A stretch of DNA of 5,977 nt from a virus (lineage: Duplodnaviria > Heunggongvirae > Uroviricota > Caudoviricetes), in the IMG/VR virus record IMGVR_UViG_2627853869_000001; one strand, 5' to 3'. The notes beneath the pieces are model-generated. The model saw nothing but the letters and a program-made list of their open reading frames with translations. It did not search any database and had not been told where the DNA came from. Positions 1 through 5,977 of this stretch are shown here, in pieces; the first letter of the stretch is position 1; every line of letters begins with the position of its first letter. The translations under genes and the position numbers were made by a program.

Positions 1-1645
1 TTTCCGGTTCCTGTTGCGCTACTGGCTCAGGTTGTTTCGTTTCTGGCTCGTTTTGTTGCGTATTTGGGCTGTTTTGTTCCGCTTTCTGGTCGTTCTGTTC
101 CGATTCTTGCTGGTTCTGGTTTACAGAATCGCGGGTTTCAATCCCCTTTACCCATTTCGGATCATTCGGGTCGCTAATCCCTGCAACAAATTCTCCGCGA
201 GAGGCAGCAAGCAACTTATCGGCGTCAGGCTGGCTGATATTGGCTGCCTGCATAATTTTGTTTACTTCGTCAGCGGTAACTTTTACCGGCTCTGGTTGTG
301 CGGTCGTGTCAGATGCACCAGTATTTTGTTGTGAACCTGAGTACGTGCCGTTTTTACGTGCGAAGTATTCCTCTTTTGTGATTTCCGTAGCTCCCAAGGC
401 TAGTGCTTTTTCCAGACCAGAAAGTTTGTTTGCGCGACCGTATTTTTCGCCATCCTTGTCGGTGAAGAGGAAGTAGAACGGCCCCTCACGCTCTACAGAT
501 GGTTCGACTTCCACTTTGCATTCGGTTTTTTCGTTGCCCGGAATTGCCGTTTCCACTGCATCAGTTTCTGGTACTGGCGACGAGAGAGTATCAGTTGCGC
601 TCTGATTTCTTCCTTCATCTTCAAACACGCCCTTTGTAGTCAGGTATTCAGTAATGTATTTGTTCAGTGCCACAGGGTCTTTGTGAATGTCGATCGGACG
701 TTCACGGACAAGGCCAAAAATAGTCTGGCGGTCGTAGCGAAGGGCATCAGGCTGTTTGCGCATTGATGCCGAGATACGCTTCCAGTCTTCGCGGTCGTTG
801 TCGATAACTTCATTTTTTGCCCAGCGATGGATGCTGCCGTCAATGTTTCCGGCATCCACATCACCAGGCCAGAGAGCGTAGGCCAGTTCGTCATCCAGTG
901 TTTTCCATGTCTGCTTGTATTCGCGATGAATGGCAGCAATGACCGGGCTGATTTTTCCTGTTGAATTTTCACTGTGCTGTTGATTGGTTCTGGCGCGGGC
1001 GAGATCAACAACAGACGTGTATTTTCCGGTTTCCTTGCGTTCACCTTCGCGACGTTTTTTCCAGATGCGCATCTCTGCCTGAATTTCGGGCCATTTGGCA
1101 CCAGGCTTACATTTATGCTTAACCCACCCGATGGCATGCAGCTTAAGCTCCGGATACATGGCGTTAACTTCTGGCATTTTCATCAACGCTTCAACGATAT
1201 GTCCGTCGAATGTTGCCATGTCTTCCTGCAACAATTCCTGTGCGCTAATAACCATATCAACGGTGATGTTTTCACATGTGTCGAACTTAACCATGACAGC
1301 GTTCTGTACTTCAGGGGCCAGCTTGTCAAAAGTGACGTTCATCGGATCGGATTCAGTCTCAACCGGGACAAAGGAAGCAGACTCCTCATCCCAGCGGTTT
1401 TCCTGCATATATTCAGCATCCCAGGAATCGAGGGCAGGGCGGGGTATACCGGGTTTATCCTCGCAGACAAGAAATTTATAAGCGCAGTCCTGAGCAGCCG
1501 GATAATGCTCCAGGAATTGCCAGTGAAATTTTGCGCGGGCGCGACGTTCATCACCGGCTTCAATGGCTGTGGCTACAGCGACGGCACCTTCTTCCTTTAT
1601 TGCCTGTTCGTCCGGAATGGCGGCGCAAATAAAGACTTTACTCAT
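1..1645 (-). CDS. Large prophage early protein, N-terminal 548 codons; partial, C-terminus lies beyond window start. Occupies the position of ydfE in Qin-type and recE (exonuclease VIII) in Rac-type prophages
   Basis: Manual translation of the minus strand from ATG at 1645 (MSKVFICAAIPDEQAIKEEGAVAVATAIEAGDERRARAKFHWQFLEHY...) stays open with no stop through position 1. GAGGT Shine-Dalgarno lies 8 nt upstream of the ATG. The frame ends in the window with a Q/E/N/P-rich low-complexity linker (…DKLLAASRGEFVAGISDPNDPKWVKGIETRDSVNQNQQESEQNDQKAEQNSPNTQQNEPETKQPEPVAQQEPE). The RecE-like assignment rests on gene order and unverified recollection of a similar motif. Confidence 0.6.
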   Translation of the reverse strand, partial: MSKVFICAAIPDEQAIKEEGAVAVATAIEAGDERRARAKFHWQFLEHYPAAQDCAYKFLVCEDKPGIPRPALDSWDAEYMQENRWDEESASFVPVETESDPMNVTFDKLAPEVQNAVMVKFDTCENITVDMVISAQELLQEDMATFDGHIVEALMKMPEVNAMYPELKLHAIGWVKHKCKPGAKWPEIQAEMRIWKKRREGERKETGKYTSVVDLARARTNQQHSENSTGKISPVIAAIHREYKQTWKTLDDELAYALWPGDVDAGNIDGSIHRWAKNEVIDNDREDWKRISASMRKQPDALRYDRQTIFGLVRERPIDIHKDPVALNKYITEYLTTKGVFEDEGRNQSATDTLSSPVPETDAVETAIPGNEKTECKVEVEPSVEREGPFYFLFTDKDGEKYGRANKLSGLEKALALGATEITKEEYFARKNGTYSGSQQNTGASDTTAQPEPVKVTADEVNKIMQAANISQPDADKLLAASRGEFVAGISDPNDPKWVKGIETRDSVNQNQQESEQNDQKAEQNSPNTQQNEPETKQPEPVAQQEPE

Positions 1646-1737
1646 TTTGTTTTACCTCATTACAGATTTAAGGGTGAACAAATCCCTGCCATTGCTGGCA
1701 TATAAGAATGAAACCGGATATTTATTACGGAACTGTT

Positions 1738-1929
1738 TTAAAGACCTGCCGGGATTTCGTTATTATCCTGGTGAATAACTTTATCGACCGGGTAACAGTT
1801 ACCGGGAATTTTCTGTTCGGTTGCTGCAGTCACACACTCCTGCATTGTCCTGTGAACACTGACTGCAATATCAACTGGCTCTCCGGAAACAAGAAAAACT
1901 GTCAGAACAAGTGCAAATGCTGTATTCAT
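1738..1929 (-). CDS. ydfD: YdfD-like small membrane/lysis protein (63 aa) with N-terminal hydrophobic segment
   Basis: ORF MNTAFALVLTVFLVSGEPVDIAVSVHRTMQECVTAATEQKIPGNCYPVDKVIHQDNNEIPAGL. AAAGG lies 9 nt upstream of the ATG. The start codon overlaps the dicB stop as ATGA (translational coupling). Length and position match ydfD of the Qin dicB operon. Confidence 0.75.
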   Translation of the reverse strand: MNTAFALVLTVFLVSGEPVDIAVSVHRTMQECVTAATEQKIPGNCYPVDKVIHQDNNEIPAGL

Positions 1930-2114
1930 TGCCAGCATCCTTTTTGTATCGGACGTAAACGGGCCAGCATTGAAAGAATGCATATTTTATTTAATAGCTC
2001 CCGTTCGTGTTTTCTCTTGTTAATGGCATCTTCAGTAAATACAGGGTTACTGATATTGACACCAATTTCAAAACAACCTTCAGACGTATTAACGTTTGGT
2101 AATAACGTTTCCAT
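1926..2114 (-). CDS. dicB: DicB cell-division inhibitor (62 aa; MinC-interacting small protein)
   Basis: ORF METLLPNVNTSEGCFEIGVNISNPVFTEDAINKRKHERELLNKICILSMLARLRPIQKGCWQ. GAGGA Shine-Dalgarno lies 7 nt upstream of ATG at 2114. Sequence recognised as DicB; it sits immediately downstream of DicF as in Qin. Confidence 0.85.
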   Translation of the reverse strand: METLLPNVNTSEGCFEIGVNISNPVFTEDAINKRKHERELLNKICILSMLARLRPIQKGCWQ

Positions 2115-2283
2115 TATCGCGTCCTCAACAATGAATTTTGTGATGCGGTGCCTGGTGCCTCCAGGTGACGTTAACCAGTTAACAATTAACGCCGGATACA
2201 GAGAATCCACCCATAACACTGTTTTTGGTTTTAACTGTTCCGCGTGCGCTCAGCCGCATTCACCACATCACAAAATTCACTTT

Positions 2284-2326
2284 AAAAAGGGCGGCAGAGC
2301 AGTCACGGAGTAAAACTGATACCGCC
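2284..2326 (-). terminator. Intrinsic terminator hairpin of DicF (GGCGG…CCGCC stem followed by TTTTT)
   Basis: On the minus strand the GGCGG…CCGCC stem (+ coordinates 2290-2326) is followed immediately by a five-T run (+ coordinates 2284-2288). Confidence 0.55.
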
Positions 2327-2341
2327 AAACGTCACCAGAAA
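2284..2341 (-). ncRNA. dicF: DicF small regulatory RNA (ftsZ-targeting sRNA of dicB operon)
   Basis: Minus-strand sequence TTTCTGGTGACGTTTGGCGGTATCAGTTTTACTCCGTGACTGCTCTGCCGCCCTTTTT matches the DicF sRNA as recalled. It has a single-stranded 5' seed and a 3' GC hairpin followed by a T-run. Exact 5' and 3' ends are approximate. Confidence 0.75.
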
Positions 2342-2366
2342 ATTGATAACAGAGGGCGTTGCAGCG

Positions 2367-2403
2367 GGGTTGTCACTTAAGCGTATGGTCAACCTGACAA
2401 CCC
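2367..2403 (-). other. Perfect 9-bp inverted repeat (GGGTTGTCA-N19-TGACAACCC) forming a stem-loop in the untranslated operon RNA just 5' of DicF; candidate RNase processing structure
   Basis: Arms at 2367-2375 and 2395-2403 are exact reverse complements. The element lies about 25 nt upstream of the DicF 5' end on the transcribed strand. Confidence 0.4.
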
Positions 2404-2682
2404 GGTGTCCTCAACGGTGGAAGGAATAACCCCGCCATACTTACCGCCGCGCCATTTCGCGGATTGCCACAACCGGAAGCGCACGGTCGACGAAAATTTA
2501 ACGACAGGCTATCTATGAACCAGCTACCTCGCCGTGCGCTTTCGCGTTATGGTCTGACTTTTCAGGGAAATATCCTTTCAGTAAACTGTCAGTGCCGGAT
2601 GCTCACCCGTGTCCGGCGCACGCACTCCACCTCACCCGTGGAGAACTCCTTAATTACCAACCTTAGCTTCGTTGGTTAGCTA

Positions 2683-2901
2683 TTAACGCGGGTATGTAAT
2701 CATTCTGGCAATGCTTAATGCCGCTGCTTTTTCCAGATTAGTGATATCCTGCTCCAGAGCGGACAGATTTTCAGCCTGCTTAGCCCTGGCTTCATTGGCC
2801 CATTTCAGATCCTGCGCTGCATTAATTTTCTGGTGCATCCACTCATAAAGTTCATCATCGGTATAGTCTGGCGCGATGATGACGGGTTCTCGTTTCTGCA
2901 T
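2683..2901 (-). CDS. ydfC: YdfC-like small protein (72 aa), function unknown
   Basis: ORF MQKREPVIIAPDYTDDELYEWMHQKINAAQDLKWANEARAKQAENLSALEQDITNLEKAAALSIARMITYPR. GAGGA lies 6 nt upstream of the ATG. Length and order match ydfC of the dicB operon. Confidence 0.7.
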   Translation of the reverse strand: MQKREPVIIAPDYTDDELYEWMHQKINAAQDLKWANEARAKQAENLSALEQDITNLEKAAALSIARMITYPR

Positions 2902-2930
2902 ACTGATTCCTCGCGGTGCTGCTTCGCTTA

Positions 2931-3059
2931 TCAGCCGTTAGATTTTGCCGAGCTGGAAAGCGCCTGTTTAAACTCACTGAAGCTGAGAGCTTCTTCGCCT
3001 TCGGCAAGGCCTTCGAAGTATTCTTCGTAAGCCTTTTCCATGATTGTGTCGAAATCCAT
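2931..3059 (-). CDS. ydfB: YdfB-like small acidic protein (42 aa), function unknown
   Basis: ORF MDFDTIMEKAYEEYFEGLAEGEEALSFSEFKQALSSSAKSNG, below the size cutoff of the supplied ORF track. AGGTGAG lies upstream and the start follows the ydfA stop by 1 nt (TGA-T-ATG). Net charge is strongly negative. Confidence 0.65.
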   Translation of the reverse strand: MDFDTIMEKAYEEYFEGLAEGEEALSFSEFKQALSSSAKSNG

Positions 3060-3060
3060 A

Positions 3061-3216
3061 TCACTCACCTGAGTTTCTTTCCAGCCAGCGACGGGCACCA
3101 TTTTCGGTTTTAAACGTTTTGCTTTTGGTATACGTCATTGCGGTGAACGTGCCGTCCTGGTTTGGAAACACGCCGTACACCAGAGATTCGTTGTTGCCAA
3201 GATCGATAGTATCCAT
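3061..3216 (-). CDS. ydfA: YdfA-like small protein (51 aa), first gene of the leftward operon
   Basis: ORF MDTIDLGNNESLVYGVFPNQDGTFTAMTYTKSKTFKTENGARRWLERNSGE. GAGG lies 5 nt upstream of ATG at 3216. The longer track ORF (start 3372) would run into the promoter/operator region, so the short form is preferred. Confidence 0.7.
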   Translation of the reverse strand: MDTIDLGNNESLVYGVFPNQDGTFTAMTYTKSKTFKTENGARRWLERNSGE

Positions 3217-3331
3217 GCTGACCTCATTTCCCCTTAACGCCGGGGTAGCGGAACTGTTTGCGGAGAACACCGTGCGGTGTGTTGATGGAGGTAATTTAGT
3301 TTTCTCATTATTTTTCGTCAAGGTTTTTTGA

Positions 3332-3344
3332 TGAGAAAACTCAA
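3332..3344. promoter_or_regulatory. Operator-like motif TGAGAAAACTCAA (left operator, O_L analogue) in the leftward operon control region
   Basis: This 13-mer is identical to the one at 3868-3880. It is a near-palindrome (TTGAG-N4-CTCAA type) sitting between the repressor stop and ydfA. Candidate sigma70 elements on the minus strand flank it: -35 TTGACG at 3316-3321 with -10 TAAATT at 3293-3298, or a weaker pair at 3377-3382 and 3355-3360. Confidence 0.5.
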
Positions 3345-3408
3345 GTGCTGGCGCAAGATAAAGCCAATACATTGAAATGTAAGGCTTTAAAATTTTGTGA
3401 AGGGATGA

Positions 3409-3816
3409 TTATTGATGCTTGTTGCGTTTGCGAGCCTCTAATAGCTCGGTGAACAGGCGATTAAAATTCTCAACGCGGGCGCGGAGTTCGCTGAGTTGTG
3501 CTTGTTGCTCTGATTTAGGAAGTGCGCGATACAAACGCAGCATCTCTAACTCATCTTCCGATAAGTCTAGGGTACTATCGAGTGAAACAGGGGGAGCTGG
3601 TGTTTTGTCCTCGTCGCCAAACAGTATCCAGGTTGGTGAACATTGCAATACCTCGGCGAGGCGATGCAAATTTTGCCCGCGCGGGGCTGTATGGTCACTT
3701 TCCCATAATGAAATTGATGAGCCAGATACGCCAGCAGCTTTGCTTAAACCGTTTTGACTTAAGCCTACCTGCTTACGTCTTTCTCTAATGCGTTGACCTA
3801 AAGTTTTCTCGTTCAT
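3409..3816 (-). CDS. dicA: DicA-like HTH (XRE/CI-type) prophage repressor, 135 aa
   Basis: ORF MNEKTLGQRIRERRKQVGLSQNGLSKAAGVSGSSISLWESDHTAPRGQNLHRLAEVLQCSPTWILFGDEDK…ENFNRLFTELLEARKRNKHQ, with an N-terminal helix-turn-helix and divergent orientation to a cro-like gene. An in-frame upstream ATG at 3867 would add 17 aa, but the shorter start fits DicA length. No Shine-Dalgarno precedes either start, so the mRNA may be leaderless. Confidence 0.75.
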   Translation of the reverse strand: MNEKTLGQRIRERRKQVGLSQNGLSKAAGVSGSSISLWESDHTAPRGQNLHRLAEVLQCSPTWILFGDEDKTPAPPVSLDSTLDLSEDELEMLRLYRALPKSEQQAQLSELRARVENFNRLFTELLEARKRNKHQ

Positions 3817-3837
3817 ATTTAGATATCTTAATAATCC

Positions 3838-3867
3838 TTGACTTGAGATTCCTTGAGTGATTAGCAT
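3838..3867 (+). promoter_or_regulatory. Candidate rightward promoter (P_R analogue) for the cro-like gene: -35 TTGACT, 18-bp spacer, -10 TAGCAT
   Basis: TTGACT at 3838-3843 and TAGCAT at 3862-3867 sit upstream of the GGAGG RBS (3885-3889) and ATG at 3894. The -10 overlaps the operator motif. Confidence 0.45.
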
Positions 3868-3880
3868 TGAGAAAACTCAA
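3868..3880. promoter_or_regulatory. Operator-like motif TGAGAAAACTCAA (right operator, O_R analogue) in the dicA-dicC intergenic region
   Basis: Identical 13-mer to 3332-3344. Here it is embedded in the palindrome ATTGAG-aaaa-CTCAAT (3866-3881), between the candidate -10 and the RBS of the cro-like gene. Confidence 0.5.
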
Positions 3881-3893
3881 TATTGGAGGTGCG

Positions 3894-4121
3894 ATGTTTA
3901 AATCAGACGTAATTAATTTTTACGGTACGAAAGCCAAAGTAGCGAAAGCTGCTGGCGTTGACCCATCTGCTGTTTCTCAATGGCAAGAGCTAGTTCCTGA
4001 AGGTCGCGCGATGCGTCTACAGGAGGCATCTGGCGGCGAGCTTCTGTATGATCCCAAGGTTTATGACGAATATCGTAAGACGAAGCGGGCGGGGCGGTTG
4101 AACAATGAAAATCACTCCTGA
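3894..4121 (+). CDS. dicC: Cro-like small HTH regulator (DicC/YdaS family), 75 aa
   Basis: ORF MFKSDVINFYGTKAKVAKAAGVDPSAVSQWQELVPEGRAMRLQEASGGELLYDPKVYDEYRKTKRAGRLNNENHS. GGAGG RBS precedes the ATG. It is divergent from the repressor; the family assignment is from recollection of the YdaS/DicC pattern. Confidence 0.7.
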   Translation: MFKSDVINFYGTKAKVAKAAGVDPSAVSQWQELVPEGRAMRLQEASGGELLYDPKVYDEYRKTKRAGRLNNENHS

Positions 4122-4626
4122 ACAGGCTCGTGAGGCTCTGGATGCCTGGATATGTCGACCAGGAATGACACAGGAGCAGGCGACGATATTAATCACTGAA
4201 GCATTCTGGGCTTTGAAAGAGCGCCCGAACATCGATGTTCAGCGTGTCACAGATGAAGGTGGCGCGGTTGATCAGCGAGCGCTTGGCGTTAATCGAGTGA
4301 AGATATTCGAACGCTGGAAGGCTATCGACACCAGGGATAAGCGTGAAAAGTTCACGGCGCTAGTGCCTGCAATTATGGAGGCTATCCGGATTAATGATTT
4401 CAGGTTGTATCGTGAAATTAGTGACGGAAAAAGCATCACGTACATGATCGCCGGGTTAAACAAAGAATATGGCGATGTGGTGGAGTCCGGACTGCTTTTT
4501 GCTGATCCTGCCGTAGTGGATCGTGAAACTGACGAACTTATAGAAAAAGCAATTGCTTTCAAACTTGCGTATCGACAGCAATACCAACAAAAAGCTGGAT
4601 GGAATTATGAGCCTTCTTTTTGCTGA
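4105..4626 (+). CDS. YdaT-family protein (173 aa) in the position of lambda CII; putative regulator
   Basis: ORF MKITPEQAREALDAWICRPGMTQEQATILITEAFWALKERPNIDVQRV…. Its start overlaps the cro-like gene by 17 nt. The gene order repressor / cro-like / ydaT-like matches Rac-type racR-ydaS-ydaT modules. Confidence 0.55.
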   Translation: MKITPEQAREALDAWICRPGMTQEQATILITEAFWALKERPNIDVQRVTDEGGAVDQRALGVNRVKIFERWKAIDTRDKREKFTALVPAIMEAIRINDFRLYREISDGKSITYMIAGLNKEYGDVVESGLLFADPAVVDRETDELIEKAIAFKLAYRQQYQQKAGWNYEPSFC

Positions 4627-5384
4627 ACGCCCACTGGTTATAAACACACAGCTTGCGATGAAGATTGGCTTAAATGAAGCCATTGTGTTGCAGCAGTTGC
4701 ATTACTGGTTGAGAGATACCAATTCCGGCATGGAATGTGATGGTGTTCGCTGGATTTACAACACAACGGAACAATGGCTGGAACAGTTCCCATTCTGGTC
4801 AGAGTCAACGTTAAAGCGCGCGTTTGCAAGTCTGAAAACGCTGGGGCTCTTGCGTTGTGAAAAGCTCAATAAATCAAAGCGCGATATGACCAATTTCTAC
4901 ACGATTAACTATGGGAGCGAGCTTTTAGATGATGGCAAATTGAGCGAATCCATCGGTTCAAAATGCGCCGCTCCATCAGGTCAAAATGACACGATGGAAG
5001 AGGTCAAAATGAAACGCTCCATTGGTTCAAAACGACCCAATGTCATCGGGTCAAAATGGCCCGATGATCCTACAGAGAATACAACAGAGATTACTACAGA
5101 GAATAAAAACACTTTTCGTCCGGAAGCTTCGCAACCGGACCCGCAGACGGCTGAACAGGATTTTTTAATCCGGCACCCTGGCGCAGTTGTGTTTAGTGCG
5201 AAAAAACGCCAGTGGGGTAGCCAGGAGGATCTGGCGTGTGCGCAGTGGATATGGGGGCGGATCGTGGGTCTCTACGAACAGGCCGCCAGTGATGATGGCG
5301 AGATCATGCGACCAAAAGAGCCTAACTGGACTGTCTGGGCCAATGATGTGCGCACAATGCGGATGCTGGATGGCAGAAGCCACA
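4607..5384 (+). pseudogene. Lambda O-like replication initiator gene with internal iterons, 3'-truncated by IS insertion at 5385
   Basis: ORF from ATG 4607: MSLLFAERPLVINTQLAMKIGLNEAIVLQQLHYWLRDTNSGMECDGVRWIYNTTEQWLEQFPFWSESTLKRAFASLKTLGLLRCEK…. It overlaps the ydaT-like stop by 20 nt and contains the iteron array. Beyond 5384 the frame runs into the IS terminal repeat, so the 330-aa track ORF is a chimera. Confidence 0.6.
4951..5066. repeat. Five tandem iteron-like direct repeats (~23-bp period, core GGT(T)CAAAATG with dyad-symmetric ends CATCGG…CCGATG); putative prophage replication origin
   Basis: TCAAAA(T/C)G cores start at 4958, 4981, 5004, 5027 and 5051. Units 4 and 5 are internally palindromic (CATTGG…CCAATG; CATCGGG…CCCGATG). 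The array is followed at 5067-5110 by a moderately AT-rich (about 68%), purine-rich stretch with three (T/A)ACAGAGA(A/T)T repeats. Confidence 0.6.
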
Positions 5385-5424
5385 TGAACCGCTCCGGGTT
5401 TCCTGGAGAGTGTTTTATCTGTGA
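5385..5424. repeat. Right terminal inverted repeat of the IS3-family element
   Basis: The IS terminus sits immediately 3' of the OrfB stop (5427-5429). The exact inner boundary of the repeat is uncertain because the other end is outside the window. Confidence 0.5.
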
Positions 5425-5426
5425 AC

Positions 5427-5977
<551 letters not shown>

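What the first reader, a model, noticed from the sequence alone, without database searches (positions are those of the whole stretch)
1..1645. Large intact upstream ORF (at least 548 codons) ending in a Q/E/N/P-rich linker; possible RecE-type protein
The ORF downstream of ydfD on the minus strand is uninterrupted across the whole window. Its last visible residues form a low-complexity Q/E/N/P-rich linker (nucleotides 1-120 are a degenerate GTT/TTC-rich repeat on the plus strand), implying a further domain beyond the window. By position it corresponds to ydfE, which I recall being IS-truncated in E. coli K-12, and to recE in Rac-type prophages. A motif near its window-proximal end (…LLAASRGEFV.GISDPNDPKWVKGI…) resembles what I recall from exonuclease VIII. 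If correct, this would be an intact recombination exonuclease with a divergent N-terminal domain of unknown function.
Basis: partly seen in the sequence, partly recalled or inferred. Interest (0 to 1): 0.5.

Follow-up and report, generated by a model that had tools for sequence, protein, structure and literature searches.

The report
Prophage YdfE exonuclease gene, cut short
The open reading frame is real, but it is the first two-thirds of a common, already catalogued prophage "exonuclease" gene (the intact form of E. coli K-12's broken ydfE) that shares a middle section with RecE and ends in a different, 3'-to-5' nuclease domain with no RecT partner.

Summary
A 548-codon frame runs on the minus strand from the ATG at 1645 to the window edge and ends in a Q/E/N/P-rich repeat linker. 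The window is a whole 5,977-bp contig of a Shigella boydii draft assembly, so it cannot be extended in its own record. Two other contigs are 100% identical over window 1-5392, including the same IS junction. In one of them the gene continues for 275 codons to an intact 823-aa protein.

The protein is the intact version of K-12 YdfE (96% identity over the 257 residues left before the IS2 cut). It shares a central module with Rac RecE, and the recalled motif is RecE 458-481. Its nuclease domain is a DEDDh 3'-5' exonuclease (Pfam PF16473, the T4 DexA family), not RecE's PD-(D/E)XK domain. xis and int follow directly, and there is no recT.

Rare alleles with an identical window part do carry the RecE nuclease plus recT. 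They arose by a crossover about 100 nt beyond the window. The gene is under purifying selection. The DEDDh-type junction is present in about 75% of complete E. coli genomes, annotated "exonuclease". The N-terminal 548 residues match no known fold. The biological role is untested. The gene is ordinary and already catalogued.

The parts
1..1645 (-). Codons 1-548 of an 823-codon YdfE-family prophage exonuclease gene. The remaining 275 codons lie beyond the contig end.
   Evidence: Open frame. Precomputed Pfam hits YdfE_N and YdfE_C. 100% identical contigs L009 and L010 continue it to 823 aa.
1654..1658 (-). Shine-Dalgarno GAGGT, 8 nt upstream of the ATG
   Evidence: Sequence read
1031..1645 (-). 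Residues 1-205: confidently modelled N-terminal alpha/beta plus helical domain (YdfE_N type). This is the part retained in the K-12 YdfE pseudogene.
626..907 (-). Residues 247-340: helical domain, weakly similar to RecE 278-360
   Evidence: pLDDT 81-87. BLASTP alignment to RecE. phmmer mapping across the family.
341..493 (-). Residues 385-435: small beta-hairpin/helix domain with invariant GPFY...RANK...G..EI motif
   Evidence: Invariant columns G388 P389 F390 Y391 R404 A405 N406 K407 G418 E421 I422. pLDDT 75-86.
140..214 (-). Residues 478-502: motif LLAASRGEFVAGISDPNDPKWVKGI, shared almost exactly with K-12 RecE 458-481
2..139 (-). Residues 503-548: disordered Q/E/N/P-rich linker made of degenerate heptapeptide (21-nt) repeats. 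The contig ends inside the segment shared with recE.
1738..1929 (-). ydfD (DUF1482 lysis protein), the upstream gene of the same operon
   Evidence: PF07358, E = 4e-25
1926..2114 (-). dicB, in the same operon
   Evidence: PF05358, E = 1e-36
2289..2340 (-). DicF small RNA, in the same operon
   Evidence: Rfam RF00039, 76.7 bits against a gathering score of 48
3409..3816 (-). DicA/CI-like repressor, expected to control the operon
   Evidence: HTH_3 hit. Annotation of L005. DicA represses the dicBF operon in K-12 (PMC10448788).

Best explanation
What it is (shown). The ORF is the 5' two-thirds of the intact ydfE-type gene of a lambdoid prophage integrated next to ompW in Shigella boydii. It is the last gene of the DicA-repressed ydfABC-dicF-dicB-ydfD operon, just before xis and int. 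The full protein has 823 residues. It consists of a YdfE-type N-terminal domain (1-205), a helical domain (247-340), a small GPFY/RANK domain (385-435), a RecE-shared motif (478-502), a disordered heptad linker (503-548), a CxxC-x8-CxxC zinc ribbon, an acidic linker, and a DEDDh 3'-5' exonuclease domain (642-813) of the Rv2179c/T4 DexA family.

How it likely works (inferred). The window part is a non-catalytic scaffold that holds the nuclease on DNA ends or on partner proteins. The nuclease removes nucleotides from 3' ends. The role I favour, at about 45%, is processing of DNA ends for recombination or repair when the prophage operon is derepressed. My reason is that the same scaffold is found elsewhere fused to RecE's 5'-3' exonuclease or to a Rad52-fold annealase. 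The confidence value given below refers to the identity and architecture, not to the biological role.
Confidence: 0.8

Rival explanations
1. One reading: the gene is an intact RecE-type (exonuclease VIII) 5'-3' dsDNA exonuclease with a divergent N-terminus, working with RecT.
For: The best database hit, P0001 (900 aa), is 100% identical over the 548 residues. It carries PF12684 and is followed by recT, lar, xis and int at the Rac site. A central module is shared with RecE.
Against: L009 and L010, identical to the window over 5392 nt including the IS junction, carry the DEDDh domain and no recT. L004, the RecE-type locus, matches the window only over 1-2662 and has a different immunity region. 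No complete E. coli genome has the RecE-type junction at more than 94% identity over its full length, while 143 have the DEDDh-type junction at 99% or more. The L004 allele is a recombinant: from gene nt 1572 onward it is 97.5% identical to K-12 recE.
Confidence: 0.04
2. It is a prophage-encoded defence or superinfection-exclusion nuclease. The DEDDh domain would degrade the modified DNA of incoming T-even-like phages, as reported for the E. coli DexA homologue EcD (HREX).
For: The domain belongs to the DexA family: PDB 8KEL, E = 6e-6, and PF16473. EcD protects against T4 (PMC12153337). The neighbouring gene dicB protects against phage infection (PMC6832061).
Against: EcD is a different, stand-alone protein that starts MIDTET and ends TIPETYD, as read from its primers. 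In the alignment the residue aligned with DexA W152 is Tyr. There is no PADLOC hit. The nuclease is fused to a RecE-like scaffold and sits in the exo position next to xis and int. Plaque-forming phage mEp460 keeps the gene.
Confidence: 0.2
3. It is a 3'-5' exoribonuclease acting on RNA, for example in processing or turnover of operon transcripts such as DicF or of host RNAs.
For: The Pfam family is named after the exoribonuclease Rv2179c. Some RefSeq annotations call the protein a 3'-5' exoribonuclease.
Against: The closest solved relative by sequence is a DNase, T4 DexA. The alternative modules on the same scaffold are DNA enzymes: the RecE nuclease and a Rad52-fold annealase. The gene sits in the recombination and excision region.
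Confidence: 0.1
4. It is a decaying remnant with no function, in a defective prophage.
For: The prophage replication gene is split by an IS at window 5386. The K-12 copy is a pseudogene.
Against: The gene is intact at 823 aa in the identical lineage. dN/dS is 0.14 for the window part and 0.25 overall. The DEDDh-type junction is present in about 75% of complete E. coli genomes, and the gene is carried by viable phage.
Confidence: 0.03

Closest known systems
YdfE of E. coli K-12 (Qin prophage pseudogene b1577)
   Same: Same gene and same position after dicB-ydfD. 96% identity over residues 1-257.
   Different: The K-12 copy is cut at codon 257 by IS2E. The copy here is uninterrupted through 548 codons, and through 823 in identical contigs.
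RecE / exodeoxyribonuclease VIII of the Rac prophage (P15032; nuclease domain structure 3H4R, from my own knowledge)
   Same: Same place in the early-left operon upstream of xis and int. Shared central module: residues about 262-345 weakly, and 455-626 strongly, including LLAASRGEFV.GISDPNDPKWVKGI, the zinc ribbon and the acidic linker. Large N-terminal part of unknown function (PMC11611040).
   Different: The N-terminal 200 residues belong to another family: RecE has PF06630 and this protein does not. hhalign gives only 16% probability of a relationship. The nuclease is DEDDh 3'-5' rather than PD-(D/E)XK 5'-3'. There is no recT.
T4 DexA (PDB 8KEL) and the E. coli homologue EcD (HREX; PMC12153337)
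   Same: The C-terminal domain beyond the window is in the same Pfam family, PF16473, with conserved DEDDh residues.
   Different: DexA and EcD are stand-alone proteins of about 200 residues. Here the domain is the tail of an 823-aa multidomain protein. Similarity to DexA is weak (E = 6e-6). The residue aligned with DexA W152 is Tyr.
Lambda Exo (Red alpha)
   Same: Positional analogue: an exonuclease gene immediately upstream of xis and int in a lambdoid early-left operon (from my own knowledge).
   Different: Unrelated fold and, by family assignment, opposite polarity. Lambda Exo works with Bet, whereas this gene has no annealase partner.

Membership tests
RecE / exodeoxyribonuclease VIII | C-terminal PD-(D/E)XK nuclease domain (Pfam PF12684) | tested here: not met
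   The full-length protein of the 100%-identical contig L009 hits PF16473 and not PF12684. K-12 RecE and P0001 do hit PF12684.
RecE / exodeoxyribonuclease VIII | Reaches the NCBIfam equivalog cut-off (NF007259, 1269 bits) | tested here: not met
   282.7 bits, matching only residues 246-626 (on the near-identical allele of L001)
RecE / exodeoxyribonuclease VIII | N-terminal Exonuc_VIII domain (PF06630) | tested here: not met
   No Pfam hit in the window protein. K-12 RecE residues 2-178 hit with E = 6e-98.
RecE / exodeoxyribonuclease VIII | Adjacent recT annealase gene | tested here: not met
   xis and int follow directly in L001, L005, L009 and phage mEp460. recT is present in Rac and in L004.
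RecE / exodeoxyribonuclease VIII | Central module (motif, zinc ribbon, acidic linker) | tested here: met
   BLASTP E = 3e-63 overall, with near-identity from RecE 453 to 592
YdfE family (Pfam PF27430 YdfE_N, PF27432 YdfE_C) | Hits to both family models | tested here: met
   Precomputed hits for this exact contig's 548-aa product.
YdfE family (Pfam PF27430 YdfE_N, PF27432 YdfE_C) | Orthology and synteny with K-12 ydfE | tested here: met
   96% identity over 257 aa. Same order dicF-dicB-ydfD-ydfE.
DEDDh 3'-5' exonuclease, Rv2179c-like / DexA family (PF16473) | Domain model hit | tested here: met
   E = 3.1e-63, residues 642-813 of the L009 protein. This lies outside the window.
DEDDh 3'-5' exonuclease, Rv2179c-like / DexA family (PF16473) | Catalytic D-x-E, D and H-x4-D residues | tested here: met
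   MIDLET, GANFD and ERHNALDD in the L009 protein. D7, the Exo I glutamate (FIIDFET motif) and D119 of DexA align. The catalytic residue list is from PMC12153337.
DEDDh 3'-5' exonuclease, Rv2179c-like / DexA family (PF16473) | 3'-5' exonuclease activity and substrate (DNA or RNA) | not testable with these tools
   Needs biochemistry
HREX anti-phage nuclease (EcD-like) | 5hmC-recognition residues equivalent to DexA W152 and D169 | tested here: inconclusive
   The W152 position aligns with Tyr. The D169 region lies beyond that alignment. PADLOC gives no hit.

The most novel reading that the evidence does not exclude
The N-terminal-plus-central part encoded in this window may be a portable platform for DNA-end recombination. 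Enterobacterial phages would combine it freely with any of three effectors: a 5'-3' PD-(D/E)XK exonuclease (RecE), a 3'-5' DEDDh exonuclease (this gene), or a Rad52-fold annealase. The DEDDh form, present in about three-quarters of E. coli genomes, would then be an uncharacterised, annealase-less 3'-5' resection recombination function, or alternatively an anti-phage nuclease. The scaffold would be what makes full-length RecE better at linear-linear recombination.
Probability: 0.3. Interest if true: 0.55.

Novelty: already known. Interest (0 to 1): 0.25.

Why it matters
The gene itself adds little. It is already in RefSeq as "exonuclease" or "3'-5' exoribonuclease", and its domains are in Pfam. 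The result corrects a tempting mis-assignment, because this is not RecE. It also shows that the ambiguity comes from a draft-assembly break inside a segment shared between prophage genes.

Two wider points are worth noting. One of the commonest prophage genes of E. coli has no experimentally known role. The unexplained N-terminal part of RecE belongs to a scaffold that is shuffled among three kinds of DNA-end enzymes, which gives a handle on why full-length RecE behaves differently in recombineering.

Tried and rejected
- Pfam on the window protein alone gave no hit, because the YdfE models are newer than the local copy.
- PADLOC gave no hit for either full-length form.
- An exact search for the IS junction in GTDB representative genomes gave 0 matches. 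megablast of the junction in complete E. coli genomes found no record with the same junction. The junction was finally found by looking up the truncated replication protein.
- Foldseek against BFVD found nothing with E of 0.001 or less. A profile search against PDB sequences found nothing. The afdb50 library was unavailable.
- hhalign of YdfE_N against the RecE N-terminal domain gave 16% probability, so common ancestry of the two N-modules is undecided.
- Literature searches for ydfE plus exonuclease, and for Rv2179c plus prophage, found nothing on function. One search was swamped by "receptor" matches.
- I considered that EcD of the HREX paper is this protein's C-terminal domain and rejected it. 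The EcD cloning primers encode MIDTET... and ...TIPETYD, not this sequence.
- A weak terminator-like hairpin between ydfD and the ORF is no more than chance would give.

Full report
**Observation**

On the minus strand, an ATG at 1643-1645 opens a frame that runs without a stop for 548 codons to the window edge. The other two frames of that strand are full of stops. At the window's base composition the chance of such an open frame is about 6e-13. A GAGG Shine-Dalgarno lies 8 nt upstream. RefSeq annotations of near-identical genomes use the same start. The last 50 residues are 62% Q/E/N/P against 23% elsewhere. Nucleotides 12-118 form a degenerate 21-nt (heptapeptide) tandem array. AlphaFold models residues 499-548 as disordered. 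The description in the finding is therefore correct.

**Where the window comes from**

The truncated replication gene at 4607-5545 runs into an IS, so its product is unique to this insertion. An exact look-up of that product showed that the window is the entire contig AMJZ01000112.1 (5,977 bp) of assembly GCA_000815685.1. Its two proteins are recorded as Shigella boydii proteins, and the ORF product is WP_039064386.1, "hypothetical protein, partial". The sequence therefore cannot be extended in its own record.

The same protein cluster contains a 262-residue fragment of the replication protein that stops at the IS junction. Looking it up returned contigs L009 (21.8 kb, seen in 20 or more samples) and L010. 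Both are 100.000% identical to window 1-5392, including the first 8 nt of the IS at the same insertion point. I treat these as the same lineage.

In L009 the gene continues for 275 codons past window position 1 and gives an intact 823-residue protein. An excisionase gene, an integrase gene and ompW follow directly.

**What the protein is**

- **YdfE orthology.** Residues 1-257 are 96% identical to the K-12 ydfE pseudogene, which IS2E cuts at exactly that point. The gene order DicF, dicB, ydfD, ydfE is the same as in Qin.
- **Relation to RecE.** Against K-12 RecE there is a real shared central module. It is weak over residues 262-345 and near-identical from about residue 455. The near-identical part includes LLAASRGEFV.GISDPNDPKWVKGI (RecE 458-481), a CxxC-x8-CxxC zinc ribbon and an acidic linker. 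The recalled motif is therefore genuine.
- **The nuclease domain is different.** The L009 protein hits PF16473 (Rv2179c-like DEDDh 3'-5' exonuclease) at residues 642-813 with E = 3e-63, and it does not hit PF12684. The DEDDh residues are present as MIDLET, GANFD and ERHNALDD. The only solved relative by sequence is T4 DexA, PDB 8KEL.
- **Failed RecE tests.** The RecE equivalog model reaches 283 of the required 1269 bits. RecE's N-terminal family PF06630 is absent here but present in K-12 RecE. No recT is adjacent in L001, L005, L009 or in the plaque-forming phage mEp460, which carries a 94%-identical copy in the same position.

The best protein hit, P0001, is 100% identical over all 548 residues but is 900 residues long. 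It carries the RecE PD-(D/E)XK domain and is followed by recT, lar, xis and int at the Rac attachment site. At the DNA level this allele is identical to the window lineage, apart from one base, up to gene nt 1744. From nt 1572 onward it is 97.5% identical to K-12 recE. It is thus a recombinant whose crossover lies in the shared zinc-ribbon segment, about 100 nt beyond the window end.

The contig ends inside that shared segment. Other assemblies break the gene at 466, 548, 570-630 or 708 codons. This pattern fits an assembly break at a repeat shared between prophages. I did not test that explanation directly.

In complete E. coli genomes the junction of the middle module with the DEDDh domain is contiguous in 4068 of 5426 genomes. 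The junction with the PD-(D/E)XK domain is contiguous in only 114, and that count includes ordinary recE.

**The part inside the window**

An AlphaFold model built with 73 diverse homologues has mean pLDDT 69. Confident blocks are 1-205, 247-340 and 385-435. Disordered linkers are 344-384, 438-455 and 499-548.

Invariant residues include W75, W85, H149, K184-W185-P186, W195 and a GPFY...RANK...G..EI motif. None of these resembles a nuclease active site. That last point is my reading of the pattern, not a test.

- Foldseek against BFVD gave nothing significant.
- A profile search against PDB sequences gave nothing.
- PADLOC gave nothing.
- Whether the YdfE-type and RecE-type N-terminal domains are remote homologues is undecided, with an hhalign probability of 16%.

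dN/dS against the mEp460 allele is 0.14 for the window part, so the sequence is constrained.

**Family picture**

The family is small: 226 clusters at 50% identity among 1.84 billion representatives. Domain mapping shows two N-terminal types (YdfE_N and PF06630) and three C-terminal types. The C-terminal types are PD-(D/E)XK, DEDDh and a third with no Pfam hit. All six combinations occur:

| N-terminal type | PD-(D/E)XK | DEDDh | Third type |
|---|---|---|---|
| YdfE_N | P0001 | P0007 and this gene | P0133 |
| PF06630 | K-12 RecE | P0167 | P0229 |

**How it probably works**

Shown:
- the architecture;
- an intact DEDDh domain;
- the location at the end of the DicA-type repressed operon;
- purifying selection;
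- the shuffling of modules.

DicA control of this operon is established for K-12, where YdfE is stated to be uncharacterised (PMC10448788).

Inferred:
- The 548 residues in the window are a non-catalytic scaffold that positions the effector on DNA ends or on partner proteins.
- The effector trims 3' ends.
- The role is recombination or repair of linear DNA after prophage derepression. I put this at about 45%.

The inference rests on two things. The alternative effectors on the same scaffold are both DNA-end recombination enzymes. Full-length RecE outperforms its isolated nuclease domain in linear-linear recombination (PMC11611040). The lack of any annealase partner weakens the inference.

Rival roles:
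- **Anti-phage nuclease (about 20%).** The DexA homologue EcD plays this role (PMC12153337). However, EcD is a different stand-alone protein, and the residue aligned with DexA W152 is Tyr here.
- **Exoribonuclease (about 10%).**
- **Functionless remnant.** This is unlikely given.

**Verdict**

The gene is the intact ydfE, a very common prophage gene that is already annotated and already in Pfam. It shares a scaffold with RecE but carries a 3'-5' DEDDh nuclease and has no RecT. Novelty is low. The open points are the untested function and the combinatorial scaffold.

Noticed in passing
window 5386-5977 (junction at about 5385/5386): An IS3-family element (IS629/IS1203-like end TGAACCGC...; partial transposase on the minus strand, 5427-5945) is inserted in the prophage replication gene (4607 onward), which makes the prophage defective. 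The same junction occurs in contigs from 20 or more other samples, but in no complete E. coli genome of the collection.
   Followed up: yes
window 1 and window 5977 (both contig ends): The window is a complete draft-assembly contig bounded by repeats on both sides. One end lies in the segment shared with recE and the other in an IS. Many assemblies break this gene between codons 466 and 708.
   Followed up: partly
window 2289-2340, minus strand: DicF small RNA (Rfam RF00039, 76.7 bits), sitting between ydfC and dicB as in the Qin prophage.
   Followed up: no
[not shown]
   Followed up: partly
representative proteins (P0001, P0007, P0133, P0167, P0229, K-12 RecE): Both N-terminal types (YdfE_N, PF06630) occur with all three C-terminal types (PD-(D/E)XK, DEDDh, Rad52-fold), so shuffling around the shared central module is fully combinatorial.
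   Followed up: partly
L004 10001-12703 compared with L009 4568-7039: The 900-aa RecE-type allele is a recent recombinant. It is identical to the window lineage up to gene nt 1744 and 97.5% identical to K-12 recE from nt 1572, so the crossover lies in the zinc-ribbon segment.
   Followed up: yes
P0125 group (for example P0125 residues about 450-702; phrog_26058): A possible fourth C-terminal type with no Pfam, PDB or annotated PHROG match. The grouping may partly reflect the shared middle region, so it is uncertain.
   Followed up: no
window 1687-1700, minus strand: A weak terminator-like hairpin (TGCCAGCAATGGCA followed by a T-rich tail) lies between ydfD and the ORF. It is not above chance. 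A K-12 study, however, detected transcripts ending after ydfD and none reaching ydfE (PMC10448788).
   Followed up: no
window 1926-2219, 3061-3372, 3409-3867: The gene calls stored for this contig are longer than RefSeq calls for near-identical DNA: dicB 97 aa against 62, ydfA 103 against 51, repressor 152 against 135. These are probably start-codon over-extensions.
   Followed up: no
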